The notes beneath the pieces are model-generated. The model was not told where the DNA came from. It saw nothing but the letters and a program-made list of their open reading frames with translations, and did no database searches. A stretch of 58,218 nucleotides of DNA, counting the filler, from Sphacelaria rigidula (taxonomy: Eukaryota), in assembly GCA_964200075.2 (NCBI GenBank). It is 9 parts of 9 records of this genome, joined end to end, with 100 filler letters (N's around TTAATTAATTAA, not from the genome) between each part and the next. Parts side by side here need not be neighbours in the genome. Positions count along the whole stretch, not along the records: positions 45,361 to 51,739 come from CAXNAA020020440.1; positions 51,840 to 58,218 come from CAXNAA020020441.1; 7 more parts are not named here. One strand, 5' to 3'. Both the position numbers and the translations under genes were made by a program. Below, piece after piece: positions 4,010-58,218 of this stretch (positions are counted from its first letter, which is position 1; each line of letters starts with the position of its first letter).

Positions 4010-4040
<31 letters not shown>

Positions 4041-12462: not shown

Positions 12463-12861
12463 CCATCGTTGCTATCAGCCTGGTCCGGCGAGAACCCGTC
12501 GTGCTCCGTCCCAGCTTCGTAGGGGCGGACCCCCGATGGGGTTGCCGTCGGTTGGCGATGGCGCTATAAAACACGCCACTCACTGCGTAAGCTAGACAAC
12601 CAGCTTACCCTTTTTGCGCGCGCGCTTGCGTTTTTTTTGCGATAACCATGATGGTAGTCCAGCTAGATCATGTTGTGCGGCATGGGAGAACTCAAATCCG
12701 CACAATGGGGATGATCGTACTACGTAGTGTTTAAATGGTGAGACACCCATAAGACAGTGTATAAGACGTGGCTGTTTCTGGAAGTGGCGATGCCAGACAA
12801 TAAAGCAACTCATTGGAGGCTGTCATCCAAATGCAAGATGATCAGAAGGACTACCATCATG
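12463..12861 (+). mobile_element. C-run-targeting non-autonomous retroposon (Penelope-like architecture): upstream tail-less terminal repeat X plus body, cut by the contig end
   Basis: Follows CCCCCCTTCCCC. X (GCCTGGTCCGGCGAGAACCCGTCGTGCTCCGTCCC...) matches 50814-50868. The body aligns with 50401-50715. Confidence 0.7.
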
Positions 12862-18902: not shown

Positions 18903-18933
<31 letters not shown>

Positions 18934-21900
18934 CGTAAGAACTCAATCCTGTGACGTTCACCCCGCGTTGTTATTTGGACCTACGGGACACATTGCTTTC
19001 TGGTGGGGTGTGTTGGTACCACAAGCGATTGCTTGTCCTTCGCGAATGCCGCCGCAATGTTTCTAGTTCGCCTTGTTTCTATGGAGTGTTCTCTCATGCA
19101 ATACAACCACCGCCCTCTTGAGCACCCTGTCGTCCTCGCACCCGTCCGGTCTGTTTACGACTCATGCCTACGATCGGATGCAACCCACGGGTCAACAAGA
19201 AGGGCATGATTTCGTGATCCTTTCTTCGTGCGGCGTGATCTTGTGGTAACCTATGGATGCCTCTAGCTCGACGTCGAACATTTCGTTCATCATTTCTAAC
19301 GCGTCGAGCTGTACTCCCATTTCGCAGTCGGGCATGCAATGNNNNNNNNNNNNNNNNNNNNNNNNNNNNNNNNNNNNNNNNNNNNTTAATTAATTAANNN
19401 NNNNNNNNNNNNNNNNNNNNNNNNNNNNNNNNNNNNNNNNNCATTGACCACGCATCCCTTTCGAGACGGAGCACCGAACGGGGGGGGGGGGGAATCATGT
19501 ATTGGCCTTCCTCTTGTGTGATCCCGGCTGGTGCCCCCATATATACCGAAAGGTTAGGGTTAACCAGCGTCCACAATAGATGGGATGACAACACACACAC
19601 AACTGCGGGAGTATTCCTGTGTTTAACTTGGGTCAGAAGAATCTCGTCGACAAAGGTGGACACACAATGACCATGTCCGATTCAATGGCTGGCTATACCC
19701 TTTTTACGCCCGCGACCGATTATTCCGAAAATCCGGCATGACAGCCCTGCCAGGTTTCAGAGGATGACGTAGATGGTCACCAGTAGGCCGTATGGTGGCC
19801 GAAACAAATATCTTGGGAGTTTTGTATTACCCGCCCGATCAAGTCGCGGCAACCAATGTGACATGGTTGAGCAGGCAGGACCGATTTTGGGTATTTTCTT
19901 ACTTCCGTATCCAAAATGCGAAAGTCGACCAAGGTTTCCTCCTGTAGACCCACAAGCTCCCGCCTGGGCAGCAGGGGTTTCTCGGGCAGAAAAATTTCAC
20001 CGCTGTGGCTCCGTCTCTTGTGTGTAGTAGTGTCAGCTTGTGTTCGTCCAGCTCAGGTCGTGTGGTGGAAAAAAAACGATCGGAAGTCGAAATCGAAAAA
20101 ATGACAGCTATAATAAATTGGCTCGCTTTGCAAAACCGCAACCAAAACTCCTTCCGCTATCCCGGAAACTCGGCAAAAACCTACATATGCCCGATATCCC
20201 AAAGTTGAACACTTTTTTCGGAAACGCGGCGGGAAAAGCTTGAATGGCCGTCGGTGCACGTTTAAGAACGTTCCGAGATGAAACCGAGATACAAATCTGT
20301 GCTTAAGGTCTCGGTGCATGCAGCATCGCGCGCGTACGGGCACCCGCGATAAAAAGCACGCAAATTCAGTGATAGCCTGACTCTGCTACAATGCAATACA
20401 AGGTGCTTCGATCACGTGCTTCCGGTTCCTCATCGTGAGGGTATCAATGATCACGATATGTGCACAACAGAGTGATCCCGTGATGGCCCCTCCAAGAAAC
20501 GTGGGCGGTTTGAGCGGGCACAACCTCCTTGCAAACCAAAATGACAAAAATCGAGCGCACCGAGTAGTTGGAAGCTCTCATGCTTGGCATCGTTTTCGCC
20601 CATGTCGCCCATATTAGCGGCTTCGTAAAGTCTGAAACCAGCCATCAGGCACCGTATGGTCATTTCCTTTGTAACAGTTTTGGGGCTGGTTTGAGGGGGA
20701 GCGCTATCGCGGTATCACTCAACAGTTGTGTAAGCTTTCCCGCAGTTTGTACACCGTTCGTGCCCTACGCCTTTGCCAAAATAATCGTCACAACCTGATT
20801 TCTCGATATATCGAGGCCCAAATTCGTATACCGTACGTAGAATGTAGTTCGTCCGTCAACCACCTTTATGACGGTTGTGCAACTCTCTTGATCGCGATTC
20901 AAGTTCCCTTGGGTATACTGTAGTCGTCAGCTGTTGGTCGTTGTCGGCCAAAATTTCGCCCTCCTCTGTAGCATATTCGCTGCCGATGCCAGAACTCATC
21001 GCGGTGTCGAAGGCTAGAATCAAATTCGATCTCGATTTCGATTTCGAAGTCTTGACTTATAAAGGCGTGCCCTGCATTGTCTGGGGACGGGGGAGGGGAG
21101 GGGGTATGGCCCGCTATAAACTTCAGGCACAAATTCAAAACACGCACACCACACACCACCGAGATACGCCCTGACGCGCCGCTTACACCCCGCAGTATAC
21201 GCCATGGCGTCCAGCTGTTCAGCAATCGGTGTGTGTGTGTGTGTGTTGAACTCATCAATGTACCACTGATGACGAAATCACGGCTACTACACAAAAAATT
21301 CGACCTGATGGTCGACGAGGGAACGGGACTGCTGAACCCCTCTCGCGATAACAAATGAAGGCCAGCACCGCAGAAGGAAGACGGAGAACTAAAACAAATG
21401 AAAAATAAAAAGCTTCTGTGTTGACCTTCTTCCTGTGTGACCCCGGCTGGTGCGCCCACTTATACCGGAAGGTGTAGACCGACGTCCAGCATAAAAGGGA
21501 TGACAACACACACACAGTTCTGCTCGAAATCCCCTTGCCCTGAGAATTGCTGGCTACGACTTGTTCATCATTGTCGATGACTCGCAGCATATGCGTGGCA
21601 CAGCATATGCGTGGCAATATAGGAAGCACGTTGTTGAGGTTCTTGGACTTCCGTAATTCGCCCCCCCTGGACAACATGTATGAGGATCTTTTCCCACGAT
21701 CACCGGCTTGCTAGCTGTATGATCCTCACTGAGAGACTCCCTCTCTCTAACGCTATAGACGTGTGTGTTCCACATTACACGTACGAAGCTCAATACGACA
21801 ATTAGAGCACCGACAGAACGTCCGCGGCAGCCAGTCTTCCGCGGTGCGATCGTGTTCCCATCAACAAGTTGGATTGTCTCGGTCTGTTCACTACACCCTG

Positions 21901-25511: not shown

Positions 25512-25597
25512 GTGGGGAAACTTTTCTAGCTTCACTTGAATGATCTGTTGTTGTTGTTGTGGGTGGTGGTGTTTTTCCCTCTGTTTTGGACTAGGAG

Positions 25598-25821
25598 CAG
25601 TGCTCCGTCTCTAAAGGTATGGAGGTCAATGGTGAAACGAGTAAGGCAAGCAACAAATGAGTACCCCCCATGAGGCATTGAGAAACCCGTGGCTGTCTCT
25701 GGAAGTGGCAATACCAGAAAATCAAGCAACTCATTGTAGGCTGTGATCCAAATGCAAAATGATCAGTACGCTTCGGGCCGAACAATCTTAGTAGGATGCA
25801 GCGCACCCTTCGTGCGACGCG
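25598..25821 (+). mobile_element. Degenerate copy of the C-run retroposon: hairpin plus tail joined to a body fragment
   Basis: GTGCTCCGTC...GGAGG-TCAATGG...ATGAGTAC-CCCCC, followed by sequence aligning to 50610-50765 and 12747-12846. Confidence 0.7.
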
Positions 25822-29600: not shown

Positions 29601-30711
29601 CATCTTGCATGTTACAGGGTGCATGCTCCTCCTGGGAAGATACGGGGAAGATACTAAGATATCTGCGGTCAGGGGATCGAATTGGGGATGCCCGTCCTTC
29701 AGCCGTCAAGTGGTTGTATGAATCCGTCTTGGGGAGAAATATGTTTATCTCGTAAGCGCGACGACGGGGGGCTCTTGGCGTGTCACATTTTGAATTCGGG
29801 TGCAGCACACCTGCCTCGTGTTGAAGTTCAGCGCCATTATCAAGTGCACGGTGTGCCCTCGAGCCACGTGTTCACTGACTTCTGGGGACTAGCTACGAAG
29901 TGATAAATATAGCATACTTCGCAGTGCTTAGTTACGAGCTGGGTGTCTTGATGTTCTTCGATACTCGGTAATTACTGGTCACCGGACAACATCGACAAGG
30001 ATCATCACCCGCAACGAACAACATGCTAGCTCAGAGTTCGTTCCCAGTTCTCAGTGTCGCTGCAGAGCTCAACGCTTTCCTGACCTGCCTTGATATGTCC
30101 ATAGAGTCGACACGCGTCAAGGTGGTGGGGGGAGTCTTTCTTGTAGATAACGTGCCTGACGTTCCACGGGTTCCCGACTCCTGGTCTCATGAAACGACAA
30201 TCACGGGCATCATTGCCCACGACCAAATAGCTTGCTAGTGCCTGGCCCTCAAGACGAGACTCACTCTCCCTCTAGCTCTGCCAATCTACGTGTGTGTATG
30301 TGTGTGTCACATAGCATCGAAAGCTCAGACTCTGCAGCTAGAGCATCAACACGGCACCCACGCTAGCCGGGTCGTCGTCAGTCAGTACAGTACCCCAGCA
30401 CTTGAGGAAGCAGTCGCACATTCTTATATCGAACTACGGCATCCGTGTAGAACCGTGTCAAGATGGTTGAAACTGGCATTAGCTATTACAAGGAGGCGGT
30501 GTTCACTCGTCCTATGGCGTATCATGCGGGCTGAGCAGTGTACGTGAGACTTAATGTTGGTCGCCAGGAGGAGTTAGTCCTCTAATCATGAGATCGATTT
30601 TGCTTGTAGAGTTCGATGTCCAGGAATAACTGGTTTGAAAAATTGACTGCGGAGCGGGAGCTTGCCGCGTAGAGATCATTTGGAATAAATCCCACCCCCT
30701 TTCCCGCTCAT

Positions 30712-30801
30712 CCTCTGGTCTGGCGAAAACTCGTCGTGCTCTATCCCGGCGTCGTACGGATGCAAGGGCTTATGACGGTGGCTTGCACGTTCATGAGTAC
30801 A
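30712..30801 (+). mobile_element. 5'-truncated copy (X + tail) of the C-run retroposon
   Basis: CTGGTCTGGCGAAAACTCGTCGTGCTC...TTATGACGGTGGCTTGCACGTTCATGAGTACA followed by CCCC. A degenerate CCCC..TTCC..GCTCATC duplication lies on both flanks. Confidence 0.7.
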
Positions 30802-32257
30802 CCCCGTCTCTTCCTTATGCTCATCTCGATATCGCACACGCCTAAGCTTGATGTGAAATACATTCCGCACCTGCGAAGAAGGACAGGTGGAGAAGAGAGG
30901 AAAAATAATGGACGACCAACGAGAAGCTGATGCCTTAATTTTTATCATGATATACTGTGAATTTGAGTCGAAAAAAAAATTAAAAGTCTTTTTTTTTTCG
31001 GAGACTCACTCATTCTTGCACACGCTCAGACGGAACCACCGTCTTCGCATCCAACAACCAACATTCCACGTCACGTTGATATCGTCGCGTGTGTGCTGCT
31101 GCTCCATCTTGCCAACATTGCGAACGCTCAGGATCCATCGAAGAGTGCGATTGCATTTTCCAGCCTCCCTCCTCATCAGTCGTGGGACATAAAATTGTAT
31201 TCCGGTATTTTTTTTCCCTCTCGCGCACCCACACCCGCGTTTCATCGTGGCTACAGCGAGGATGCGCACAGAGGCCGCTTACAATGACGTAACAAAACGG
31301 ACGGCGAAGATTCCACGGTTAGGGCAAATCATCATGACTCAAAATCACCAAATTGACGATTTCTTCGGCCTGATTGCCCAAGAGGAAGAAAAAAGTTGAT
31401 CGCTGGTCCAAGGGGTATCCACGCAAATTTTGCGCCATTCCACGTGTCTGGGCTGCGTATACCTGAGTTGTAACGCTGAAATGAAGCTTACGGAGTGATG
31501 CGTCACGAGTCGACTCGTGATACTAGAACCAAGTAATTTCCAGATGAATCATCATCACCCTTGGAAAATTCCTCTCCCCACATGAAACCCCCTTGGTTCG
31601 CGGCATGATGAGAAACTACATCAGGGAACTGCGACTGCGTGAAAGGAATAACAGTCTAATACATTTGGATTCACACCACGGCAGAGATATCTCAGCGTCG
31701 AGGCTCTCGGCATATTTGACAGTGGATTACTCACTGTTGAACATGTCTGGATGGAACCTCGAGTTTGAGATACCTCTACTCGTGGTGTGGTCAAGATCTC
31801 ACGTGGTCAGAAGTTCAATCCGCTACAACAGTATACTGATAACCAAGTTTGCGCTTGAGTATCGCCCCCCTGACAGAGGGATGAGAAACCAAGAAGCTAA
31901 GCCTGGCTTCCGTCTGCTGTTCGAGTGGGAAACCGCACCGCACTTGTTCGAGGCGAGCAGACTTCATGTCGCTGGCCAGGACAGACAGAGAAAGGGATCA
32001 ACTATCTTGAGTTTAAGAGTGATCTCACGATGGGGAGGGGGGGGGAAGATCTGCGTCATCTCTTCTCGAAATTCCGCCTCAAATCGTCTTCGAAAGCAGC
32101 AAAAGTTGTTCGAACGCGCTTGTCACCGAGAAAAAACGCTTACTCATACTGCTTAACACCGTTTTCACCCAAACACAAGCAAACCGCCAGTACACGCTAG
32201 TGTCTTGGGTTGTCTGCCACATCTATGCACCCTTTTTTCCGTGGAATCACAACCCCC

Positions 32258-32290
<33 letters not shown>

Positions 32291-36766: not shown

Positions 36767-36790
36767 ATGGCATGCATGATCATGAGTACA
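36767..36790 (+). mobile_element. 24-nt truncated solo tail of the C-run retroposon
   Basis: ATGGCATGCATGATCATGAGTACA flanked by a 17-nt duplication CCCCCCCGATTACATTC / CCCCCTCCATTACATTC. Confidence 0.8.
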
Positions 36791-38601
36791 CCCCCTCCAT
36801 TACATTCGACCATACGTGCAATAGGAGAGGCACACCAGGAGCGAGATAGACAGGTGATACTATCTAGCATCAACACACTGACCACAATATACCGGTCAAC
36901 GAGAAATTTTGGTTAGTGTGTTCATCAGTCGCAAGTGATTGTTTGATTGATCGCCGCACTTTGACTGACCCCCAGGGATCCAGCCGTGGTCACATCAGTC
37001 GCAAACTAAGATGAAGTTTAGTTCCAGTACAATATCTTGGGTATTATTACATTTACTTATGCAGCTTCATCAGGAACGCAGTAATAATTTGGGTGTAGTT
37101 GAGTGCAGATATTACCGAGAGACATGATGCAACAAACGGCCTCGTAGGTGAATTCCGAGGTGATGGATGAGTGACAGGGCGAACACTCACGGCCAGCAAC
37201 TCCAATACTCTCGAAAGCCTCCCGCAATTCTTGTATCTACTTTAGCGATGAAGAGACAACGTCTCATGGAGGGATATACTCTCAACATCTTTCAGCTGAT
37301 ATTGTCTGAGAGGCATTTCCGAGGTTCAGGCACATTTTTTTTTGTCTTTGCACAGGACTAGCAAACTCATCAACCACTACGGCACTACTTGCTCTGTTCC
37401 ATAAGCACCGTCTGTCTGGTATGGATACACGATCCCGTAAACTTGTCTCACGCGTTAGGCGAGAATGTTCTTCAAATATTCGTTGTTTATAGAGTATTTT
37501 TTTATTATTTTATTTTTCGCGCACTACCCTACGTGGTCGAACGGCCGGAAAGATCAGTCGGCCCGAAAACGGCCGTTCCTCGTGCCCATTCGGGGAAAAC
37601 GAAATATGAAAGAAGAACGTCAGAGAAAGTTGTTGACCGTCCGTAGCACCGCGGCCTTTGTTGGAGTAAGAAGCGAGGGTCGCTTACTTCGACGGTTGTG
37701 TGAGAGGTCGAGCTCCCTGGTGTCGTCCTTTTAAGCTCTACGGCTTTTTCATAGTTTTGTCGGGTACTCGGGGTCAACATCACCGTAAGTGCTCGGTGAG
37801 CGGACCTAGCTTATACCCCAATCTCACGAAACTATAGCTTCAATCAATTTTAATACACCTTTTTTGGGGTCTGTTTCGGTTTCCGAAGTGATAGCTATCA
37901 GCTGAGAAATCAAACAGACCAATGAATCTCGAAATCGTTTTCAGAAAAACGATCGTTGAACTTTTCAGCTTAGATGGTTGATGTGGGAACGGAGCCAGCT
38001 GTGTTCGACGGTAACCAAGAGAACATCAGGAAAAAAAATCCTTCAGAGTACACTGTAATTTGAATAATCTCGGAAAGATTCGAGGTCTTATCTGTTCCAC
38101 ATCGATAAGCCGCAAGTGTTCATAAACGAAATCGTGGGAACAATGAAAATTCAAATTTCTTGTGAAAGCTCCCCCTCAAAGAATCGGACCGACATATTGA
38201 AGCCCTTTTCGAATAAACTAGAAAGTGTCAAGGGTGAAGGCGTACGCCATGATAGTAACTGGGGACAAAATAGTGTCGGTCATACAGATACATTTTTACT
38301 TCTCCGTGAACACCTGAACGCACAAATTTCCTCCGAAGGCAAGCAATCATCTGTTTACCTGTATTCAATGCCGAAATCAGCAGACTCAACATGGTCAACG
38401 CGGTGACTTCTTTTCCAAAACGTCCTAACTCTCTATGATTGCATGACCACATGAATATGGCGATGGCAACGGCGGACACTGTAATGTGTACCAATCGAGG
38501 CCCCAAAAGACCACACCCTGGACAATATGTGGTCATCAGTTGCAATAGAAAAATATGATGCGTAAAGTATAGACCTATCGCAACTATTATCGAGCGACAG
38601 T

Positions 38602-38781: not shown

Positions 38782-38959
38782 NNNNNNNNNNNNNNNNNNN
38801 NNNNNNNNNNNNNNNNNNNNNNNNNTTAATTAATTAANNNNNNNNNNNNNNNNNNNNNNNNNNNNNNNNNNNNNNNNNNNNGATAAGGGGCTCCTAACAA
38901 TTCTAATCTCAGAAATTATTTCTCTACCCCTACCGTAGCATAACTCAAATATCTAATTC

Positions 38960-39649
38960 GGTCCGGAGCAGGTTAAGTCCTTAGGCCATGTACTGTCGGC
39001 AGATGGCATCAAAGTGAGTGACGAAAAATTGAAAGCCATTCTCGACTTGCCGGAACCCACCTACATCGAAGAGTTGCGATCAGTACTCGTTCCAATAAAT
39101 GTCGTGCGGAAGTTCATACCAGACTTAGCTACAACCATCGTACCTCTGGTAGATCTGAGAAACAAAGAGGTGGCAAAACAAGTGTCAAAACTCTGGAATA
39201 CCGAACACGATGAAGCCTTCGAAAAAATCAAAACCATGTATGACCGAGGCACCCGCCTTTCATTTACTAGACTTCACGGAAGACTTCACGATAAATATCG
39301 ATGCGTCGGACCGAGGGGCTGGAGGTAACTTTTCGCAGAAGAAGGGCGGAGACGACGCAATCGTAGCATACTTCAGCCAACATTTCAATGACGCCTAAGC
39401 CCGCTGCTCACCCACCATGAAAGAGTGTTACGCGGTCGTACTGGCGATTAAGCGTCTCAGACAGTTTTTTTTGGGTCGTCACTTTACGTGTGTAACTGAT
39501 CATGCCGCTTTTCGAGATTTGTATGCAATGCAAGATAGAAGTAATATGCTGACCCGGTGGGCGATCGCATTGTAATCGTATGATCTCACGGTCAAACATT
39601 AGCCGGGGAAACTTCACGTCATTCCGGACACCCTCCCACAGCTCTTTAC
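38960..39649 (+). mobile_element. Degenerate Ty3/Gypsy pol: RT thumb/connection and RNase H
   Basis: LGHVLSADGI, ELRSVL, RKFIPDLA, DFTINIDASDRGAG, VAYFS, KECYAVVLAI, FTCVTDH and LTRWAIAL motifs, with stops and frameshifts. Confidence 0.92.
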
Positions 39650-41632: not shown

Positions 41633-43220
41633 TTGCGTTTGAAAAGCGACAAAAAGCTGGAATCAAGCCCTTGCTTACACCAATATGCCGTAACGTACCA
41701 GAAGATCCCGCGTTACAAATAGCTGAACCACAACATCAGTAGCAGATATTAGCTGAAAAGCTCGACAATTGGAAGCCGGTGAAAAATGATCGAGAGCTGT
41801 TCACCATAAAATATGTACACGTGAGTGCAGCGAACGTCCTCACGTCAATCGATCGGGAAAAAAGCGAAAAGAGCAAGCAGTGGAGAACGGACCCTACATC
41901 CAATATATCACGGAAGAAGATGCTCCGATACCAGAACAAGAATCGATCACATCGATGTCATATTACTCACTACATGATGAGATCCTATTCGAATCATACT
42001 TGCGTGGGCACTTGCAAAAACGTGGTTCGTGACCAACCTTTGCTTCCCAAGACCCTTGTGGGCTTTGAGCTACATTCATACCACGACCATGCGCTGTCCG
42101 CAGGGCACTTAGGATTCAAGCGAAGCTACGACAAGATCCGGCGGAAGTATTATTGGCCATCAATGAACCGCAATATAAAGGATTGATACTTGGAATGTCA
42201 AAGCTGGCAACGCCGGAAGATGCCCCACCAGCAAAAATTGCCAATGGGACATGTTCCAGTAGAAAGGCCATATGAAAGAGTGTCGGCAGACCTTGTCGAA
42301 TACAAACCAGCTTCGATGTCAAACGCTGGAGTACTATGTAAATATGTGCTGTCCGTAATGGACCACCTCACAAGGTATGCTTTGCTCATCCCGGTACCGA
42401 ATAAACAAGCCACAGCAATAGCCAAAACTGTTCTTGATAAAGGTTTTACGACCTTTACATCCCAGAAAAACTGTGTACAGATCAGGGGGCGGAATTTGAG
42501 AAGAAGCTAATATACGCAATGCAACAGGAGCTGGGTTTTAATAAAACCCGCACGACACCGTTACGCCCGCAAGGTAATGCAGTGTCAGAACGAGTCCACT
42601 CCACTATACACGCGATGTTAGCTATGCGTACGTCAATTGGGAACAAAAGCTGGGCATCCATGCTTCCGTTTATCCGAATGGCGTACAGCACATTCTATCA
42701 CAGTACAGTGCAGGGGATGCCGTATTTTTTATTGTGCGGAAGACAGGCCAAATTACCAATCAACATCATCCTCGGCATACCTGAGGGAGAGCAAGCGGCA
42801 ACACCCGGAGAAGTTTCCAAAGAAACACGGGAAAAGCTACGTTAGGATTTGAAACTGCGGGACAAGGTCTACGAGAAAGAGCGAACGAGCAAGAAAATAA
42901 GAACAGATTAAAACCGCTCCCGGTGTTCAAACCCGGTCAAAAGATACTCCTGTACCGACCATACCAGGATTCAGAAGAGCCGACCCCGAAACTCCAAATA
43001 CCATGGAGAGGACCTTTCATGATAACCGAGAGGCGATCGCCGGTTGTGTACAGAATTAAAATAGGCGACGACTCTAAACAAATGCCAGCACACCTCGCTC
43101 ACTTGAAGGATTATCGTCCGTGAGAAACGCCACCCGCATCAGATTTCGATAAGTCGAGCGAGCTGTTCCTAGGCAAACGGATACCTCTACCAGAGAGAAA
43201 TCAGCCAGACGGAACGTTGC
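41633..43220 (+). mobile_element. Degenerate Ty3/Gypsy integrase (HHCC zinc finger, DDE core, GPF/Y module)
   Basis: HDHALSAGHLG..YYWPSM..CQSWQ, PYERVSADLV, VMDHLTRY, DQGAEF, TTPLRPQGNAVSERVH and PWRGPF. The RH-then-INT order is diagnostic of Gypsy. Confidence 0.93.
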
Positions 43221-43539
43221 CAACAAAAAAACATCTCATCGATATATACCGTCATGACAATGGATTAGCAGAGTGCTCACATCCGGAGTCGAAATCCAAA
43301 AATACCGGGAAACAGAAACGGATGTGATTGTTCAGCAGACTGTTCGAGCGTCCTAGCAAAACGTTTAAGGGTTGAGCAGTAGCCTGGGGTCACAGTTCGG
43401 AGGTCAATGCGAGTTACACATGAAATGAGGTAAGAGCAATGCAGACATGAACGGAAGAATACCTGACATGTCAGCGGTGACGGAGGTACAACTTCCCAAG
43501 AAATATAGCCTCTGAGCAATGTGGGTAGTTGCTGACAAG

Positions 43540-44392
43540 AAGCATATATCATTCCAACGATGTTCAACCATTGAACACAATGCTTGCAAGATACACATGA
43601 TACCCACCGCTTTGTTACTAACGCGAGGACTTTGTCCTACTCCGGTGTCAGCGGAACCGAAGGCATCCTAGAACCCGGACATAAATAAGCCAGGCGCCTA
43701 TAGACCGATCAGTGTCCCAGGGTCCAGGCATGCATAAACAGCAGATGCATCCAGCACCAAAGTGCAAATGCATCTCATCAAAAACATGTGTCACATATGA
43801 CACACTTACATGTCACAAAATGATGAGACGCAAAGATCATGTCGATGTTTCACCAAAGAGCACAATTCCCGCAAGATAAACATCAGACCCATCGCTTTGT
43901 TACTAACGCGAGGACTCGGTCCTACGCCGGTGTCAGTGTAACCGAAGGCATCCCAGAACCCGGGCATGAGTACCTCAAGCGCCCATGGACCGGTCAGTGT
44001 CCCAGTGCCTAGTCATGTATACCTAACTGATGCAGTCAAAACCAAAATGCAAATGCATCCCAAAACAAATGTGTCAAACATGACGCAGTTACATGCATGA
44101 CACAAAATGACAAGAAGCAAGGGTCATTTCGACTGTGTTTAGCCAAAAGAGCACAATGCTCACCGGTTGAAAGCATCTTAAACACCGCTTTGCTACTAAC
44201 CCGGGGACGTAGTCCTTACCCGGTGTTAGCGGAACCAAAGGTATCCCAGCACCCGGGCGCATATAACCCAGGCGCTCGTGGACCGTTCAGCGTCCTAGTG
44301 CCCAGTCATGCATAACCGACAGACGCAAAGCAGCACTCAAGTGCAAAAAGGCATCTGAGGGAAACATGTCTCACATGACATATTTACGTGAC
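43540..44392 (+). repeat. Tandem array of about three diverged 285-295-bp units downstream of the Gypsy integrase
   Basis: CGCTTTG.TACTAAC.CG.GGAC...CCGGTGT.AG...AACC.AAGG.ATCC recurs at ~43603, ~43888 and ~44182. Confidence 0.85.
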
Positions 44393-44511
44393 AGAGAAAA
44401 AACAAATTAAAGGGTTTGCAATGCATGCACTGTTACTGACCACAGGTAGCTAGGATTGACTGGGGGAGTTACTCAATACCACAGTATAGAGAGGGACTAC
44501 CTTTGCGATTA

Positions 44512-44968: not shown

Positions 44969-46677
44969 GTGACTCAATCAATGATTGTCACTCAAAGACA
45001 CTAACACGAGTATTTAATCAGCGAAGCTGATGATCACCTCGTCCCCCCAGCCACAGTCCTGATGGGCTTGAGGCGCATAAGGAGGGGGGGGGAGGGGGGG
45101 GGGATGTGGAAGACGCTTCTTTGCAGTGTGACATCTCAGATACTGATGCCACACATATATGAAGAACCAGAGCAAGGAGGTGCAAGGTACGTGCCCCTAT
45201 CCGAAGCCGTGATGCTTTTATAATAGCTATAAAAGCACTACCGTTCACTCTCGGAAACCTNNNNNNNNNNNNNNNNNNNNNNNNNNNNNNNNNNNNNNNN
45301 NNNNTTAATTAATTAANNNNNNNNNNNNNNNNNNNNNNNNNNNNNNNNNNNNNNNNNNNNTCTAACTCCAAATATTGGCCGGCGCATCCGCCTGCAAATG
45401 TTCATGCAGCCTCTAGGCTGGCCCAGCTCGTACAAAGACTGGCATTTTCATAGAGGAGAAACTCTGTGTTCCCCCGTGGCCGCTACATGCGTCTCAAAAA
45501 CTATGCTGTCCTTCTTTCAAACCTGGCGGGCGGACGGGGAAGCCGCAATCCCTTGAAGGTTACGGGAGTACACCTTGACTGTTGAACAAGTGCGAATACT
45601 GTACCGTTGGCATCTTGACTTGTAGCCGATTCGGTGAGAGAGCGCGGTTCGTCGAAATGAATGTACTTGTGCAGCAAAATATCTCCATGCGCAACTCCAC
45701 GATTATGGGGATTCGTCACGTTCGCAGTCCACGAAAAAGAGGAGAAAACAAGATCAGACGAGGCATTGGAGCACAGCAAGTATGAAAGCGGCGAGAGGAC
45801 CGGGAGTGTGAGGCCGTGTAAGGCAAGTAACAAACGTGTCAGATCCTCTTGGGAACCATCTCTTCGCTCTCTCAAAAAAAAAAACGTCACACGTGCAACG
45901 CTAGGCAACACCACCCCAAATCACCCAGCCAGGCTCAACGCTACTGTACTCTTCAACCAGTCACACCAAGACAACACATAAATTCATGGTACCATACAGC
46001 TTCCCATCAGTTTATCCCAATGTTGAGCGCCCAAAATTGTGGTAGCAACGCCATTTACTCACTACGCTGTTCATGCAAGGCTTACGGACAAACTACACAC
46101 GCAAACGGAAGTAACATCCACAAGCAACAAAATTGACCCTTAAGATCACAGAATAACTACAAGAAATAATGGCCTGCTGCGGCACGCTCAAGTCGACAAC
46201 GGCAAATTTCTGCCAACAACTTTCACACCCAATAAACTCACTGTTGCGATCGCCATGTGAACATCACACCTCGCTGTACTAGTCCAACGGTGACTATCCA
46301 ATACCGTACATCACAGAGCACAAGTCGCTCGGTGTCCGGAAAAGTTCTTCAATATGTTTCTCTCGAGAAGCATGGACTGCAATGTACACCTCCAACTGAT
46401 CTTTCTTATGGCAGGATCAAGATGATGGGGATGGATAATGGATACTCCGCATTTCTGTCTCACAGACCGATGCTTTGAGCCGCCCAAGTTTCAAAAGCGC
46501 AGCCGCCACACTTTCCGACAAAATTCAACTGTGGTTACAAACACCCGTATCGTCACTTGACCACGAGTGTTTCGCCCCCGCCACCGGCATTATCTTGCCT
46601 CACTTCGAGGCTGCTTCAAAAACGAACCGGGAGGGTCGTTTCTGTAACCGTTCTCTGGCAGACTCTGGTGTGAAGGG

Positions 46678-46800
46678 TCACTGGTTGGCGGCATGTGCCA
46701 CCCTAGCTTCAACGGACGAGATATCCAGTTCTCCTTCAAACTCTCGTAGGACATTCTCAAGCAGCGTGCTTGCGATTTTCGCCACGCCTCCTTGCACCTC
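46678..46800 (-). CDS. Terminal exon of a phosphomannomutase/phosphoglucomutase-family (alpha-D-phosphohexomutase) gene: EVQGGVAKIASTLLENVLREFEGELDISSVEARVAHAANQ*
   Basis: cccctcag acceptor, 123 nt, phase 0, ends in TGA. Continues the frame of the three upstream exons. Confidence 0.85.
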   Translation of the reverse strand, partial: EVQGGVAKIASTLLENVLREFEGELDISSVEARVAHAANQ

Positions 46801-46865
46801 CTGAGGGGAAAGGAAGAAACCCACATACAGAAGGAGAAAATAAGGATAAGCTTATGATATAGGTT

Positions 46866-46945
46866 GTATGTATGTATGTATGTATGTATGTATGTATGTA
46901 TGTATGTATGTATGTATGTATGCATGTATATATATATATGTATGT
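46866..46945. repeat. (TATG)n/(TA)n microsatellite in the last PMM/PGM intron
   Basis: About 14 TATG units followed by a TA run. Confidence 0.95.
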
Positions 46946-48250
46946 AACGCAAGAAGAAAGGGGGAACAGTGATCACTTATCTAGAGGAATCAGGGCGAGA
47001 TACGTGTGCACTGGCCTTTTCACCCTGGCGGTTGACAGTGCTTCAAAGCAATACCATACGACGCCTCCCAGTAGTAGGCGGTCTAACTATCTAGGGGTGT
47101 TTTGGGGATTCCCTTGCGTACTACTCTTCGATAGAACTCGAAATTGCTTGTGTCGGTAGATTTTGGTACAACAAAGCAGATCATCCTCGAAACACAGTGC
47201 CCAAGGCATGATAGTTGGTGTTATCGGGCGAAACGAGTAAATGCCCCGTTCATCAGGAGGGTGTTATTGACCGTGAAACACAGTTAAAGGGCCTAGTGCA
47301 ATGAGTAGGCAGAATTTCGAAAAAATAAAACTGTACATTTCTTTACAAATATGATCGGGACGGGCTCGATCGACCGAAAATACAGAAGAGTAAGAATCTG
47401 GGCTGAAACGTGGCAGGACCCCCGATGCGTCAGCCCGTAAGTCACTCAAGCTTGATTATAGATGATTTTTTCTTCTTGAAATGTAGAGCGGATACAAACA
47501 TCTTCAAATCCCCGATGTAATAGGCGATGGTACGCGAAAATAGCCCAAGAAAATCGCCAATTACGAAAAAATCACAAAATGCCAGAAAATGACGAGTTAG
47601 ACCGCCCACCACTGTATAATTTTATTTTTATTTTGGGGCATTCTGTACGGCCTTCCGGGGGTCGTCACACTGGTACCCCCGGAAGCCAGTAGGGAACGGA
47701 GAAACTTATGAAACACTGTCAAGAATACAATTTTTCTATTTAGAGCATCAATACCGCCACGAGGCTCCCTGGGACTTTCGTGCGTACCATTAGTGGAAAT
47801 TAGACGACGCCAACACCGTACATCACCGAAACATCACGGTTTCGGGTATGATTCGACCCCCGTAGTAACCGTTTTGAATGTGTTCCTTCTCCGTTAGATT
47901 CTCGAGCCGATGGCGGTTACTACGATTTGAAGCATGTGGAGATTGGGTTAAAATTGGGCTCGGAATTCGTAATTTTGATATCGTAACAATTTGACGGGCG
48001 CTGATTGGTCGATATACATTTTCGCCCTTAGCGCCACCACTATGGCCGTACATACAAATCCGGTCATACCACGCTCTTCAGCTGTCCATGGTGGTCAGTA
48101 TGATATCATGTATACGACTATCGGGCAGGTATTGCAAAAGGCATTTGCCAATGACGCAATTCTGGGTGATGAGCGTGAACCAGCCTGTATGTTTCACCCA
48201 TGTCTGTGCTCAAGGAGACGGTCGGCTTCCACGTTCAGGAGGTTTCTCAC

Positions 48251-48400
48251 CGATTCCACGTAGAAGATCACGATGGGCTCGTGCAAGGATAGCCGATTCA
48301 TGAACCAGCCGGCCCGGCCGTTGCCCTCATCTACAGCAACCCTCAATCCTTCATAGTTCACCGCCTCCGCTTCCCACGTGCTCACGGTGTCAACAGCCTC
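48251..48400 (-). CDS. PMM/PGM-family exon (domain IV): EAVDTVSTWEAEAVNYEGLRVAVDEGNGRAGWFMNRLSLHEPIVIFYVES
   Basis: NYEGxRV...GWFxxRxSLHxP phosphate-binding loop motif. ttgtcag acceptor, gtgaga donor, 150 nt, phase 0. Confidence 0.92.
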
Positions 48401-48443
48401 CTGACAAGTCACGGACACGAACGACATATCGACTTCATCAGGG

Positions 48444-48484
48444 TGTACTCATGATCATGCATGCCATAGTCATAAGACCATTGA
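48444..48484 (-). mobile_element. 41-nt solo tail of the C-run retroposon (intronic)
   Basis: TCAATGGTCTTATGACTATGGCATGCATGATCATGAGTACA on the minus strand, flanked by a TCAGGG duplication (48438-48443, 48485-48490). Confidence 0.85.
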
Positions 48485-49437
48485 TCAGGGTGGGGGAAAA
48501 ACACAAACTACCTTGCGAGCTTGTCGGCGCGTCACCAAACGCGCGCACCAACAACCTCCACAACTTTCCCGGCACCTGATGACAAAGATGGATCATGATT
48601 ATCATACGGGAGGGATGTCGAACTTCTTACCCCCCATTCTCCCGCCCCCCTCACCGTTCCCACTCGGGAGGAGTTCGTACTTTCCAGCAAGCGAGTAACA
48701 TGCCCCGTCCCGGTAATCAACTTTCATTTCTTTGCCGGCGTTGGATCAGCATCTCCACACCCCGTCGACTTTGATCAAATTCCAGACAAAATACCACGAT
48801 CCGGAGTAGAGGTGTTTGCCAAAACATGTGATCATTTCTCAAGTCATTCGTCAGCTCGTCCCGGACCCTATCATACTTGTGCCAACTGGCGATGAAAACT
48901 ACGTACGGATTTCAACGTTACGCTCGTCAGATGGAAAACATGACAACATCTCCGTCAGTTGGCATCAGTGAAAGGGGTCATCGACATGAAGTTCGTGATT
49001 TTGGAACCATGATATCGAAATATGACATGATTTCCACCGCCAGTTGGGATCCATACGTAATGGGATCCGATACGAAGAACTAACTCGCTAACAAGGTGTA
49101 CCCGACAACTATTAATAGGTCCTTGGTGTATGATGACATATTTTCGCAAACACGCTCTTCGAACCCATCGAATGTGCCCGTACAGACGCACTACATCGAC
49201 CATCGGGGGCTTTTGACACAAGTGTCAAGCACGCAAATCATGATTCCCGCATTCCGTTTTGCACAAGACTTCGTCAGGAATTTACTGACATTCATGTGGC
49301 ACACCACCTGACCTAGGTGTACGAAATATGGACCCAAACTACAGCTGGCCGCAACAAACAACAAACCACAAGAGGATTTGATGGTGGCTGATTTTATCGG
49401 TACACAGAAAGGCAGGCCTTGATTATTCATCACTCAC

Positions 49438-49524
49438 CCGTGTGGCAGCGAGCGTTCTCTTGTACATGTCTGCCGGATCTACGGGCTTGGCGACCCGCAG
49501 GCGGAACTCCGTCCCTTCCATTGG
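49438..49524 (-). CDS. PMM/PGM-family exon: PMEGTEFRLRVAKPVDPADMYKRTLAATR
   Basis: actgcag acceptor, gtgagt donor, 87 nt, phase 0. Joining to the previous exon gives the family LxEP...E.RL motif. Confidence 0.85.
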
Positions 49525-50385
49525 CTGCAGTTTCGTCAGCAATCGCAACATGTGAAGAGAGAAGAAAAAAAAAGAGCACAACAATAAATACATATTCCTG
49601 AAAAAGCACGAGGAGGGATATCGCATCAGGCGAGAAGAGTAATTGCCCCTTCCTTGTCCAAGGAACATGCCTGCTCGTAAAAACGCGTCGCTTTCATTGG
49701 CTGCGGGTTTCACCACAAATGCATCGTCGGTGCAACTACTTATGCTGATCTCTCCCGAACAAAATGATATTTTTGGCTGCAACTTGTGTCATCAACGATA
49801 TGATGTTATATCTTTTTGCTTATTTATTCTTTTTAAATTCTTGTTTTTTCAGCGAGCGTGTCCGTTTGTTTCGATCTCGATTGCGTCTATTCATGTCTTG
49901 ACTGGACTGCTACGGAATGACTTCACATGCGACGATACATTAATTAGTAGTAACGTTGCAACTGGTCAGGCGTTGGAGCGCCTGCATGCTTCCCCTCCGT
50001 GCTCGGTGACAAAGCACACCGTATCGCGCAAACGTACGATTCCATACATCCCGTGTACTGAAAATTAAAGCAAATTTCATATTGGGACACGTGCGTCGCT
50101 CAAATTCCCTGGCCAGACCCTAAGCTCAACGGCATTTCTCAACCTTTGCCGCGTTCTAGATACTACTCTACGCTCATTTAGGACAACGCATCGCCTCGAC
50201 AAGGTCTTTCATCATACATGTCCTTTGCTCCGTCATTCTGACGCTGATGCGACGCTCGTCGGCACATTTCAAACACTTCTGAAACAAACAATAGTCCGTT
50301 CCATCATATTTCGGACCCATAGCATACATAAGTCGGAGCTGAAATACCGGAAATGACGAAGATACTGTGCTCACCCCCCATGCAT

Positions 50386-50909
50386 GCATCATGACTTCTT
50401 AGGGTTGGCGTCGGTTGGTAATGATGTTGTAAAACACGCCATGAACTGCGGAGGCTAGGCAACCACGTTGCCGTCTTTTCTTCTGCGCTTGCGTTTTTTT
50501 TTGCGGTAACCATGACGGCGGTCGAGTTAGATCACATTGTGCGGGGTGGAGAACCTGAACTCCGCGCGAAGGGAATGATCGTACCACTCAGTGTTCAAAT
50601 GGTGAGACACCCATGAGGCAGTGTGTATAGTAACCCATGGCTATCTGTGGGTTTGGCAATACCAGGAAATGAAACAACTCATTGGAGGCCGTCATCCAAA
50701 TGAAAGATCATCAGTACGCTTGGGGCCGAACAAACTTCGCAGGATCAGCTCACCCCTAATGCGACTACTCGCCGAACACGTCACGGCGCTTAGGGCTTGG
50801 TGATTGATTGCGAGCCTGGTCCGCCGAAAAACCGGCGTGCTTCGTCCCGGCTTTGCAGGGACGCGAGGTCAACGGTCACATGACTATGGCATGCAATTCA
50901 ACGAGTACA
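50386..50909 (+). mobile_element. Longest copy (524 nt) of the C-run retroposon: body + X + tail, inside a PMM/PGM intron
   Basis: Perfect 10-bp TSD CCCCATGCAT (50376-50385, 50910-50919). Ends ...GAGTACA. No credible ORF. Confidence 0.85.
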
Positions 50910-50975
50910 CCCCATGCATCTTTGAGATCGTGGCCAACACCGTTTTTCCCGCTTCTGAAAACGACTCAGGCACGA

Positions 50976-51016
50976 TGTACTCGTGATCTTGTATGCCGGA
51001 GTCAAAAGACCATTGA
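50976..51016 (-). mobile_element. Older 41-nt solo tail of the C-run retroposon
   Basis: TCAATGGTCTTTTGACTCCGGCATACAAGATCACGAGTACA on the minus strand. TSD not recognisable. Confidence 0.65.
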
Positions 51017-51084
51017 TGGGACATACGATCGACCACTGGATGCTATCAAAAATATATGTATCGATAGGCGCTGTTTTGACTCAC

Positions 51085-51246
51085 CTCGGCGAGATCCTTG
51101 ATAGCGTCTCCCAGTCCTGCATCCCGGCCTTGTCGCGCCATCTCAATGAGAACCTTCAAGGCCATGTAAACCCCGTCGTCCTGCATGTTGTTCTCCTTGA
51201 ACGCACCGTGTCCCGACGTCTCTATGGCCAGCTGGCAGTCTACACC
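51085..51246 (-). CDS. PMM/PGM-family exon (domain III sugar-binding loop): GVDCQLAIETSGHGAFKENNMQDDGVYMALKVLIEMARQGRDAGLGDAIKDLAE
   Basis: AIETSGHGAxKENxxxDDGxY motif. gttcgcag acceptor, gtgagt donor, 162 nt, phase 0. Confidence 0.93.
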
Positions 51247-51285
51247 CTGCGAACAAACGTATACCGTCGATTTCGGAGCAGGGGG

Positions 51286-51327
51286 TGTACTCATGATCAT
51301 GCGTGCCATAGTCATAAAGGCCATTGA
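51286..51327 (-). mobile_element. 42-nt solo tail of the C-run retroposon (intronic)
   Basis: TCAATGGCCTTTATGACTATGGCACGCATGATCATGAGTACA on the minus strand, flanked by a perfect 12-bp duplication CGGAGCAGGGGG (51274-51285, 51328-51339). Confidence 0.9.
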
Positions 51328-52217
51328 CGGAGCAGGGGGGTGGGGGGAGTTTCCGCCGCCGCACGCCCCCCCGCCACGTAGTCGAAGTCCACAGATCACT
51401 ACACCGAACGCATTGCGCGGGGGCGATACATAAGTACGACACAAAACATACTTCGTGTGGACACACACTCACGCACCGGTGACATGGAGGAATGCACGAC
51501 ACACAGCGAATTTTGGAACGAGCATGAGCACACGCGCGCACATGAAAACACAAATCAGGATGAACTGCGCACAGCAAATGCTGGCGATAGGACTGCAGGA
51601 CACTGGCCGGTAAGAGTAGCAGTAGATACACGCTGACATGATTGCAAGGGTCGGACAAATGATGAGTCGTCTGAAAATTACTTGGTTTTCGAATAATTGA
51701 TTCGAATCGTACGAATCCATCCCTAGGCTTTGTTTTCAGNNNNNNNNNNNNNNNNNNNNNNNNNNNNNNNNNNNNNNNNNNNNTTAATTAATTAANNNNN
51801 NNNNNNNNNNNNNNNNNNNNNNNNNNNNNNNNNNNNNNNAGTTCGCAAGTCGGGTTGCCCACTTGAGCCTCAATTCAGAGTTAAACCCCAATTCGCAGAA
51901 TTTGCTGTTATTTGTTCAATATTTTGTACTTGACAACATCAGGCCCTGCGGCAAGGTTTCTCCTTCGGTACGAGCAGAAGGACCAAGAAAAACGAAACGG
52001 CGAAATTACTCGGGAAGGTCTGCTTACAAAGTATCGAAACTCTTCAGAACAGAGACGCCGCATTCTCATGCGGCATTTGGACAACATGCAGACGCCTCCC
52101 GGACAAGACCCGGACGTGTTCATGACCAGCATTTACCAAATTCGTGACCAGCCTGTGTACATGGGTGAGTCTTTTTCTGATAAGCGCCTAACGGACATTG
52201 TAATCGAGGTGTTGGCT

Positions 52218-57510: not shown

Positions 57511-58170
57511 TTTAATGAATCCCAACCCCTGTTGAAGCGCGTATATTAATTTGTTCTCGAACTCTGCGCCCTGGTCAGAGTAAAGCTTTACTGGGATGCC
57601 AAATGTCGTAAAAACTCTGTCGGTAAGGGTTTAAGCTATCGTCGTGGCTTATTTATTGGGGACTGGAATGAGCGAAGCATACTTTGTGAGGTGGTTTATT
57701 ACTGACAGTACATATTTGCATAGTATTCCGGCGTTGGACATTGAGGCCGTTTTTTATTCGACCAGGTCAACCCACACTCATTCATATGGCCTTTCTACCG
57801 GAACATGTCCCATTGGCAATTTTTGCCGGCGGGGCGTCTTTCGGCGCTGGCAACTTTGACATTTAAGCACCAATCCTTTGTATCGTGGTTCATTTATGGC
57901 CAATAATATTTCGGTCGGATCTTGTCGTATATTCGCTTGAATCCTAAGTGGCCCTCGGACAGTGTATGGTCGTGATTTGAATGTAGCACCAAACCTATCA
58001 GGATCTTAGGTAGCACAAGTTGGTCACAAACTGTGCTTCGTTTTTTTCAAGTGTCCCGGCAAGTCAGACTTGAATAGAATCCCGTCATGTACTGCGTAAT
58101 GTAACATCGATGTGATCGATTCCTTTTCTGGTAACGGAGCATCTTTTCCCGTCATATATTGGATGTAGGG
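57511..58170 (-). mobile_element. Degenerate Gypsy integrase, same family as 41890-42545
   Basis: The reverse complement aligns at nucleotide level (CCCTACATCCAATATAT, GAATCGATCACATCGATGT, AAAAATTGCCAATGGGACATGTTCC). Confidence 0.92.
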
Positions 58171-58171
58171 T

Positions 58172-58218
58172 TGCCGCGCCCCGGTGGTGTAATGTTCCGA
58201 CTGTCGCCATTAGGGTGG
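58172..58218 (+). repeat. Second tRNA-Gln-derived head, abutting the Gypsy pol fragment; truncated by the window end
   Basis: TGCCGCGCCCCGGTGGTGTAATGTTCCGACTGTCGCCATTAGGGTGG matches 5442-5488. Confidence 0.7.

What the first reader, a model, noticed from the sequence alone, without database searches (positions are those of the whole stretch)
51274..51339. Solo tails share an identical 5' end at the foot of a hairpin: a defined ~41-nt retroposed unit
Seen: three independent insertions (48444-48484, 50976-51016, 51286-51327) begin at exactly TCAATGG and are 41-42 nt long. In the long copy the same position (TCAACGG, 50869) directly follows the stem CTTCGTCCC-loop-GGGACGCGAGG, and at ~25627 TCAATGG follows CTCCGTC-loop-GGTATGGAGG. 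The upstream X copy also stops at this stem (12529). Random truncation should not hit one nucleotide three times. Inference: a programmed RT stop, template switch or RNA cleavage at the stem base makes a minimal mobile unit.
Basis: partly seen in the sequence, partly recalled or inferred. Interest (0 to 1): 0.7.

Follow-up and report, generated by a model that had tools for sequence, protein, structure and literature searches.

The report
Solo 41-base tails of a retroposon
Three tiny 41-base insertions are separate copies of only the last hairpin of a very abundant short retroposon that lands in runs of C, and all three begin at the same base, the border between the element's head and its tail; why copying ends there is still open.

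Summary
Three 41-42 nt units (48444-48484, 50976-51016, 51286-51327, all minus strand) start at TCAATGG and end at GAGTACAC. Two carry their own flanking duplications (8 and 12 nt), so they are separate insertions. They are the 3' module (T) of a SINE-like retroposon of about 110 nt (S+T). This family is extremely abundant: 18,357 to 30,966 contigs of three DNA runs lie on a 1 kb stretch. It ends in a C tract and inserts at C runs, which fits target-primed reverse transcription with C in place of L1's A. In the contig consensus, T is directly preceded by the S hairpin, so the shared 5' end is the S|T module border.

Limits: a fourth solo tail (36767) starts 18 nt further in. Another copy (19442-19492) starts inside S. 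One S+T copy lacks TCAATGGT. The S hairpin is no more stable than shuffled sequence. No known ribozyme, tRNA or other Rfam family matches. No reverse transcriptase lies in the window. No genome is held, so the genome-wide breakpoint histogram could not be made.

RT stop, run-off on a cleaved RNA and a Penelope-like "tail" mechanism remain unseparated. Verdict: a real feature, a new variant of a known kind, of moderate interest.

The parts
51285..51327 (-). Solo tail s512 (module T): TCAATGG...GAGTACAC, 43 nt counting one extra T
   Evidence: E 1.4e-14. It lies 38 nt upstream of the exon's 3' splice site, on the sense strand.
51328..51339 (-). Upstream copy of the 12 nt target duplication CCCCCTGCTCCG of s512
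51274..51285 (-). Downstream copy of the 12 nt target duplication. Its first C overlaps the last C of T.
48443..48484 (-). Solo tail s48 (module T). The 8 nt duplication CACCCTGA lies at 48485-48492 and 48438-48445, and the latter overlaps the CAC at the end of T.
   Evidence: (E 4.3e-16)
50976..51016 (-). Solo tail s509, older (79% like s48), no recognisable duplication. It lies 69 nt downstream of the exon.
36767..36798 (+). Shorter solo tail c36: starts ATGGCATG, ends GAGTACA plus CCCCCTCC. The 9 nt duplication ATTACATTC lies at 36758-36766 and 36799-36807.
   Evidence: (E 2.5e-8)
50795..50913 (+). S+T copy inside a longer composite: S (two hairpins) 50795-50868, T 50869-50909, then CCCC
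   Evidence: The sharp rise of summed contig depth between 50782 and 50808 marks the 5' end of the unit.
30700..30806 (+). S+T copy lacking TCAATGGT at the S|T junction, preceded by a C-rich flank
12465..12529 (+). S module without T, followed by CCCCC and region B (12539-12845, similar to 50402-50714)
   Evidence: The same S-to-B junction recurs in contigs (tables 5 and 5c).
19442..19492 (-). C13 run, then a copy that starts inside S (second hairpin), then TCAATG. It is cut off by an N mask.
25590..25672 (+). Diverged S'/T'-like module inside the longer element
   Evidence: E 1.2 only
50402..50794 (+). Regions B, A and a linker of the longer relative (X). They lie upstream of the S+T copy.
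51085..51246 (-). Host exon (PGM_PMM_III domain), with GTGAGT and CAG at its borders. It lies between s512 and s509.
   Evidence: (E 4e-7). A 1771 nt contig of run X6 lies on 51085-51249 only (table 8).

Best explanation
The 41-nt units are separate insertions of only the 3'-terminal module (T) of a very abundant SINE-like retroposon of about 110 nt. T is an 11-bp hairpin followed by UACAC and Cs. The full unit is S (two hairpins), then T, then a C tract.

The family integrates by target-primed reverse transcription at C runs. The nicked G-rich bottom strand pairs with the C-rich 3' end of the RNA, so the target duplications begin with Cs. This is the L1/Alu logic with C in place of A.

In the solo tails, cDNA synthesis copied T and ended exactly at the S|T border, at the 3' foot of S's second hairpin. 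The cDNA end was then joined to the target. I take the border to be a preferred end of the template. Either the RNA is cut there and RT runs off, or RT leaves a folded or protein-bound S there. I weigh these two about equally. The identical, non-ragged ends slightly favour a run-off.

Shown: the separate insertions, the module border, the C-run targets and the abundance. Inferred: TPRT itself, and the reason for the stop.
For: - Separate insertions: target duplications of 12, 8 and 9 nt flank s512, s48 and c36. Similarity between the loci is limited to the unit.
- Constant 3' end with several 5' ends, i.e. a 5' truncation series: full S+T at 30700 and 50795, a start inside S at 19480, a start at the S|T border three times, a start inside T at 36767.
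- Abundance: 30,966, 25,304 and 18,357 contigs of runs X1, X3 and X5 were laid on 1,051 nt (table 1).
- T normally follows S. Loose ends 'behind' 51317 (313 records in X1, 260 in X3, 36 in X6 at 51315; agreement 0.63-0.74) have the consensus GACCATTGACCTCGCATCCCTACAAAGCCG. Read on the element strand, this is the S stem directly followed by TCAATGGTC (table 7).
- C tract and C-run targets. Loose ends behind 50895/50896 read GATCATGAGTACAC followed by 16 Cs (196+335 records in X1). Loose ends before 51281 end in a G run. The 5' flank of S+T in X6 is C-rich. In the window all copies have C runs just upstream, and the duplications start with Cs.
- T forms its own hairpin: 83% of cells are paired, against 25-49% when the partners are slid, with one compensatory change.
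- The solo tails carry the same letters as the contig consensus (TCAATGGTC......TGATCATGAGTACAC), so they come from the main subfamily.
Against: - Only four solo tails could be examined, and one of them (36767) starts elsewhere.
- One S+T copy (30765) has a different S|T junction.
- The S hairpin is no more stable than shuffled sequence (z -0.10, -0.63, -0.76). Retroelement RTs usually read through such stems (established knowledge, not tested here).
- The T hairpin's support is weak: 55 of 500 shuffles reach the observed pairing.
- No reverse transcriptase or endonuclease of any non-LTR element was found. The scans covered 45 ORFs of at least 45 aa in 45400-51740 (37 of the 38 minus-strand and 8 of the 44 plus-strand ORFs listed there, 82 in all) and 107 of the 173 ORFs of at least 85 aa in the whole window. 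The partner is therefore unknown.
- Contig depth cannot tell how many genomic tails are solo. The loose-end agreement of about 0.7 allows for a sizeable minority but does not measure it.
- The window copies have short C tracts (0-5 C), unlike the contig consensus.
Confidence: 0.55

Rival explanations
1. Penelope-like mechanism. The family is a non-autonomous relative of (C)n-targeting Penelope-like elements (Chlamys type). T would be the counterpart of the optional 30-40 bp 'tail' of such elements, a stretch delimited by two neighbouring internal start sites of reverse transcription. A solo tail would then be an abortive event in which only the stretch between the two sites was copied or kept.
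For: From the literature (passages and named sections read):
- The tail is a 30-40 bp extension at either end of an insertion unit (PMC8557442, section 6).
- It corresponds to the sequence between two RT start sites internal to the RNA (PMC11167929, abstract and section 3, part 1 of 2, plus find passages).
- Chlamys elements insert at (CA)n and (C)n, form head-to-tail copies and have non-autonomous derivatives (PMC8557442, sections 10 and 15).

From this window and its contigs:
- T is 41 nt.
- S occurs with T (50795-50913) and without T, followed by CCCCC (12465-12534).
- Head-to-tail junctions run from the end of T to the start of B (16 contigs in X1) and from S to B (tables 5 and 5c).
- A degenerate T-like stretch with C6 lies just upstream of B at 50350-50380.
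- Targets are C runs.
Against: - No RT, GIY-YIG or any non-LTR protein domain was found in the window.
- No hammerhead motif was found, although Chlamys and Naiad elements also lack canonical ones according to PMC8557442.
- The S-to-B junction seems inherited within a subfamily, so it is not independent evidence for a second 3' end.
- Isolated solo tails with their own target duplications appear in none of the passages I read.
- Head-to-tail arrays are also expected if each new copy simply targets the C tract of a resident copy.
Confidence: 0.2
2. T is a retroposon in its own right. A 41-nt master RNA starting at TCAATGG would be transcribed and mobilised, and S+T would be a fusion of it with another RNA.
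For: - Identical 5' ends are what full-length copies of a short master would give.
- 4 of the 6 T copies in the window lack S.
- The S|T junction differs between copies: TCAATGGT is absent at 30765. This could mean that S and T fused more than once.
Against: - In the contig consensus, most tails of the same young subfamily continue into S (table 7).
- No promoter-like feature and no known small-RNA family is found in or before T.
- An intronic solo tail read as part of a pre-mRNA would give copies that carry upstream flank, and none was seen.
Confidence: 0.08
3. Self-cleavage by a ribozyme at the S|T border creates the T RNA.
For: The exact, shared end directly after a stem is what site-specific cleavage would give.
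Against: Rfam's 4,227 families give nothing at S, T, B or A. These include hammerhead, HDV-like, twister, pistol and hatchet (recalled as Rfam members, not checked in a call). The scans used the gathering threshold, E up to 5 over the whole window, and E up to 10 on 50380-50930. A CTGATGA-containing stretch seen by eye at 50700-50720 (minus strand) is not conserved in the copy at 25760.
Confidence: 0.05
4. Coincidence, or local copying of one insertion.
For: - The three units lie within 2.9 kb on one strand.
- There are only three cases, and they were selected after the fact.
Against: - The target duplications and flanks differ.
- s509 is much more diverged than the other two (79% against 93%).
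- The shared start coincides with a module border seen independently in contigs.
Confidence: 0.04

Closest known systems
L1/Alu-type target-primed reverse transcription with a homopolymer tail
   Same: Target duplications of variable length (8-12 nt) begin with the homopolymer letter. The target carries a run of the same letter. There is a 5' truncation series with a constant 3' end, and the copy number is very high.
   Different: The homopolymer is C, not A. The 3' end carries a specific hairpin, as in 'stringent' LINE/SINE pairs. The partner element is unknown.
Stringent LINE/SINE pairs that share a 3' stem-loop, such as eel UnaL2/UnaSINE1 (recalled, no call)
   Same: A short 3' stem-loop followed by a few fixed letters is the part kept in every copy. 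This is what an RT recognition site would look like.
   Different: Recognition was not tested and no LINE with this tail was seen. Tail-only insertions with one fixed 5' end are not a feature I know of for those pairs.
The 30-40 bp 'tail' of Penelope-like elements and (C)n-targeting Chlamys elements (PMC11167929, PMC8557442)
   Same: There is an optional terminal module of about 40 nt. Head-to-tail and composite arrangements occur. Insertion is at (C)n. Non-autonomous short derivatives exist.
   Different: No PLE protein, no pLTR-ORF structure and no hammerhead motif were seen here. Here the module also occurs alone with its own target duplication.
Template-switch chimeras of LINE reverse transcription, such as U6-L1 chimeric retrogenes (recalled, no call)
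   Same: Modules join at fixed RNA ends. S is found joined to T or to B, and T to B.
   Different: No evidence here that S is a free small RNA. The junction types may be inherited rather than recurrent.

Membership tests
SINE-like non-autonomous retroposon moved by TPRT | Flanking target duplications of variable length | tested here: met
   12, 8 and 9 nt for s512, s48 and c36; none for the older s509
SINE-like non-autonomous retroposon moved by TPRT | Constant 3' end with 5' truncated copies | tested here: met
   Five different 5' ends with one 3' end, GAGTACAC plus Cs
SINE-like non-autonomous retroposon moved by TPRT | Short, non-coding, high copy number | tested here: met
   The unit is about 110 nt. 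18,357 to 30,966 contigs per DNA run were laid on the stretch.
SINE-like non-autonomous retroposon moved by TPRT | Head derived from tRNA, 7SL, 5S or snRNA with an internal pol III promoter | tested here: not met
   No Rfam match at S even at E up to 10. ARAGORN finds only the tRNA-Ala at 35626. A diverged head cannot be excluded.
SINE-like non-autonomous retroposon moved by TPRT | 3' tail shared with an autonomous LINE partner | not testable with these tools
   No genome is held. No RT or EN domain was found in the window ORFs scanned.
Penelope-like elements (non-autonomous, Chlamys-like) | Autonomous partner with a telomerase-like RT and a GIY-YIG endonuclease | tested here: inconclusive
   None in the window. 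The genome could not be searched.
Penelope-like elements (non-autonomous, Chlamys-like) | Partial tandem (pLTR) and head-to-tail organisation | tested here: inconclusive
   S-to-B and T-to-B junctions were seen in the window and in contigs. Insertion into resident C tracts explains them as well.
Penelope-like elements (non-autonomous, Chlamys-like) | Optional 30-40 bp tail at an end of the unit | tested here: inconclusive
   T is 41 nt. It is present after S at 50869 and absent at 12529. Whether this reflects two RT start sites is unknown.
Penelope-like elements (non-autonomous, Chlamys-like) | Insertion bias for microsatellites, (C)n in Chlamys | tested here: met
   C runs lie upstream of every copy, and the loose-end consensus is C-rich. 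The feature is as stated in PMC8557442, section 15.
Known self-cleaving ribozymes | Match to a curated covariance model | tested here: not met
   No match

The most novel reading that the evidence does not exclude
A retroposon system that uses a C tract instead of poly(A) has a built-in, site-specific end at the head|tail border. The cause would be RNA cleavage or a Penelope-like pair of internal RT start sites. It would regularly release a 41-nt hairpin module that is inserted on its own, which would make this the smallest retroposed unit with a defined 5' end. The module border would then be a window on how SINE heads and tails are joined.
Probability: 0.15. Interest if true: 0.7.

Novelty: new variant of a known kind. 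Interest (0 to 1): 0.45.

Why it matters
If the fixed 5' end holds genome-wide, it marks a specific event in retroposition at a known nucleotide: RNA cleavage, a protein roadblock, or a second RT site. With tens of thousands of copies it could be measured directly from a genome assembly and from RNA 5' end data. Retroposition linked to a C tract is little described. The only mention I found is the (C)n insertion bias of Chlamys Penelope-like elements. The family could therefore show how the tail letter, the target choice and the 3' hairpin are coupled. If the peak does not hold, these are ordinary 5' truncated SINE copies in introns.

Tried and rejected
- Whole genome: none is held, so no breakpoint histogram could be made.
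- A fuzzy regex scan timed out and was replaced by BLAST and nhmmer.
- Scan of metagenome contigs with an 18-nt piece of T: 8 loci, all unrelated chance matches with no similarity beyond the 18-mer.
- Scans of genome contigs and viral contigs with a 20-nt piece: 0 hits each.
- Earlier findings of this scan: nothing by place or by sequence.
- Sequencing runs: no RNA holder listed. X6 to X9 are only guessed to be RNA.
- Read laying:
  - Table 6 lists no places where many molecules begin or end.
  - All runs are contigs, so RNA ends, strand and expression level cannot be read.
  - Summed depth is not a copy number, and the T/S depth ratio varies between runs (1.8, 1.4, 0.7, 1.0). I therefore draw no solo-tail fraction from it.
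  - No joint skipping 50976-51016 or 51286-51327 (an empty site) is among the 15 joints shown. 254 more were not shown.
  - Alignments to s512 are clipped at 51315-51317 by an indel, so breakpoints at 51327 cannot be counted.
- Hammerhead: a CTGATGA stretch seen by eye at about 50710 (minus strand) lacks the rest of the core and is not conserved at 25760. Rfam finds nothing.
- tRNA-like head: no support.
- Protein atlas on the exon confirmed only the PGM_PMM_III family and gave no useful taxon (after two busy answers).
- Literature: 'poly C tail' with 'retrotransposon' gave 0 papers. 'poly-C' + SINE + non-LTR + target site duplication and 'brown alga' + SINE gave nothing relevant in the listings. 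I therefore found no description of a C-tailed SINE, but the searches were few and match words only.
- Complex prediction, structure prediction and protein homology searches were not used, because no protein belongs to the feature.

Full report
WHAT IS THERE

The window is eukaryotic. It has GT..AG introns, Ty3/gypsy integrase fragments, one tRNA and no long ORFs. No whole genome is held for it.

The three units named in the finding are present as described. Read on the minus strand, each begins TCAATGG and ends GAGTACA(C/T). A profile built from the tail finds six clear copies in the 58 kb (the profile was built from these same six copies, so they match by construction):
- the three units;
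- a shorter solo copy at 36767-36793;
- two copies preceded by a structured head S, at 50869-50912 and 30765-30804.

A profile of S finds three copies: 12465-12529, 50802-50866 and 30700-30765. A further copy at 19442-19492 (minus strand) starts inside S, shows the stem followed by TCAATG, and is then cut by an N mask.

SEPARATE INSERTIONS

- s512 is flanked by a perfect 12-nt direct repeat, CCCCCTGCTCCG. Unit and repeats together span exactly 51274-51339.
- s48 is flanked by CACCCTGA.
- The short copy c36 is flanked by ATTACATTC.
- s509 has no recognisable repeat and is more diverged: 79% identity to s48, against 93% between s48 and s512.

Similarity between the loci does not extend into the flanks. 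The 'one insertion copied locally' escape is therefore rejected.

THE FAMILY

I laid the contigs of four public runs on 50350-51400 at 80% likeness or more. This showed a very abundant family: 30,966, 25,304, 18,357 and 2,146 contigs were laid. The flanking single-copy exon is covered at the depth of one contig. The loose ends are the informative part.
- Contigs lying on the solo tail s512 run on, beyond 51317, with the consensus GACCATTGACCTCGCATCCCTACAAAGCCG (313 records in X1, 260 in X3, agreement 0.70-0.74). On the element strand this is the 3' strand of the S hairpin directly followed by TCAATGGTC. So the usual genomic copy is S+T, and TCAATGG sits at the foot of the stem genome-wide, not only in the two old copies of the window.
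- Contigs lying on the long copy run on beyond 50895/50896 with GATCATGAGTACAC followed by 16 Cs (531 records in X1). Those on s512 are preceded by a G run on the plus strand. So the element ends in a C tract.
- The 5' flank of S+T is C-rich (X6, place 50807).

In the window every copy has a C run just upstream, and the duplications start with Cs. This is the geometry of L1/Alu insertion with C in place of A. The primer strand of the nicked target would pair with the C-rich RNA end. In s48 the duplication even overlaps the last CAC of T.

Other repeat families in the window also end in C runs of up to 32 nt. The C tract is therefore a property of the mobilising machinery rather than of this family alone.

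STRUCTURE

- T folds into an 11-bp hairpin followed by UACACCC. Across the six copies 83% of cells pair, against 25-49% with slid partners, and there is one compensatory change. With six sequences this is weak: 55 of 500 shuffles do as well.
- S has two hairpins. Its folds are no more stable than shuffled sequence (z -0.10 to -0.76).
- No Rfam family matches S, T or the neighbouring regions B and A, even at E up to 10. This covers ribozymes, tRNA, 7SL, 5S and snRNAs.

A MODULAR, COMPOSITE FAMILY

- At 12465-12845, S is followed by CCCCC and a 300-nt region B-A.
- At 50402-50913 the order is B-A-linker-S-T.
- Contigs show the same S-to-B junction and also T-end-to-B-start junctions (tables 5 and 5c).
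- The sequence after T at 50914-50945 resembles another repeat family with four copies in the window.

Head-to-tail arrays are expected if new copies land in the C tract of resident ones.

THE SHARED 5' END

Among the copies in the window, the 5' ends are as follows:
- full S+T, twice;
- inside S, once;
- the S|T border, three times;
- inside T, once.

Under even truncation over about 115 nt, three of four solo tails sharing one start has a probability near 3e-4 (my arithmetic, post hoc). The border is thus a preferred end, but not an obligatory one.

The ends are identical to the nucleotide and abut the last paired G of the stem, without a gap. That is more typical of a run-off at an RNA end than of a stall ahead of a helix. 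With three cases this is only a lean. I cannot separate a cut RNA, an RT leaving a folded or protein-bound S, and a template jump.

COMPARISON WITH KNOWN SYSTEMS

The closest general kind is a SINE-like retroposon moved by TPRT. The membership features I could test are met: duplications, a truncation series, and short, abundant, non-coding copies. A small-RNA-derived head was tested and not found. A LINE partner could not be sought.

A second comparison deserves attention. Penelope-like elements have an optional 30-40 bp 'tail' at either end of an insertion (PMC8557442, section 6). An in vitro study equates this tail with the stretch between two internal RT start sites (PMC11167929, abstract and section 3, part 1 of 2, plus find passages). 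Chlamys-type elements insert at (C)n, form head-to-tail copies and have non-autonomous derivatives (PMC8557442, sections 10 and 15). T is 41 nt, it is optional after S, and the family is linked to (C)n. But no PLE protein, pLTR-ORF structure or hammerhead motif was seen, so this remains a rival at about 0.2.

CONTEXT

s512 and s509 lie in the introns on either side of a 162-nt exon (51085-51246, minus strand). The exon encodes part of a PGM_PMM_III domain. A 1,771-nt contig of run X6 lies on 51085-51249 only, as a spliced transcript would (table 8). X6 is only guessed to be RNA. All three TCAATGG units are in the sense orientation within 2.9 kb. The rest of the window holds one solo tail. I have no explanation for this clustering.

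VERDICT

The feature is real: a discrete, tail-only product of a C-tract retroposon family. Its cause is unresolved, and the decisive genome-wide count could not be made with the data at hand.

Noticed in passing
window 6382-6481, 12862-12961, 19342-19441, 25822-25921, 32302-32401, 38782-38881, 45261-45360, 51740-51839: Pairs of 44-N masks separated by 12 bases recur every 6,480 bases. This looks like an artefact of how the window was prepared, not biology. The masks cut the copies at 12845, 25818 and 19442.
   Followed up: no
window 2455-2481 (+), 3904-3923 (-), 4010-4058 (-), 6530-6539 (-), 16305-16316 (-), 32259-32299 (+), 32558-32565 (-), 45084-45103 (-): 30 C runs of 7 nt or more were found, counting both strands, up to 32 nt long. 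Several follow the 3' ends of other repeat families. For example...GACACTTTCTACGATA plus C8-10 occurs twice, at 6530 and 32558. This suggests that C-tract retroposition is general in this genome.
   Followed up: partly
3' flanks of 48443, 51285, 36798, 30806: TCGA lies 11-24 nt after GAGTACA in 4 of 6 tail copies, close to the distal end of the duplication in three of them. A random 30-mer of the window contains TCGA 12% of the time. This is a post hoc observation. It may reflect a preference of second-strand cleavage, or chance.
   Followed up: partly
window 48444-51327: The three TCAATGG tails lie within 2.9 kb, all sense to the PGM-like gene. The remaining 55 kb hold one solo tail. I have no explanation.
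   Followed up: no
window 5590-5753, 9044-9195, 12103-12264, 24222-24380: A four-copy repeat family carries a short T-like stretch (TCAACGCATC...CAGTACACGCC). Its continuation resembles 50914-50945. One copy lies inverted just upstream of the S copy at 12465.
   Followed up: partly
window 38957-39325, 41743-43120, 57511-58171 (-), 39649-39906 and 41374-41635: Ty3/gypsy-type fragments are present. Integrase_H2C2 and Integrase_p58_C match. An inverted 80% copy lies at 57511-58171. A 95% direct repeat of 260 nt flanks 39906-41374.
   Followed up: no
window 35626-35700 (+); 5442-5488 and 58172-58218: A tRNA-Ala(CGC) gene is found. Separately, there is a repeated fragment with a tRNA T-arm-like GGGTTCGAATCCC on the plus strand near 5450-5480.
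   Followed up: no
window 43533-44402: A tandem repeat of about 288 nt, with units 72-73% alike.
   Followed up: no
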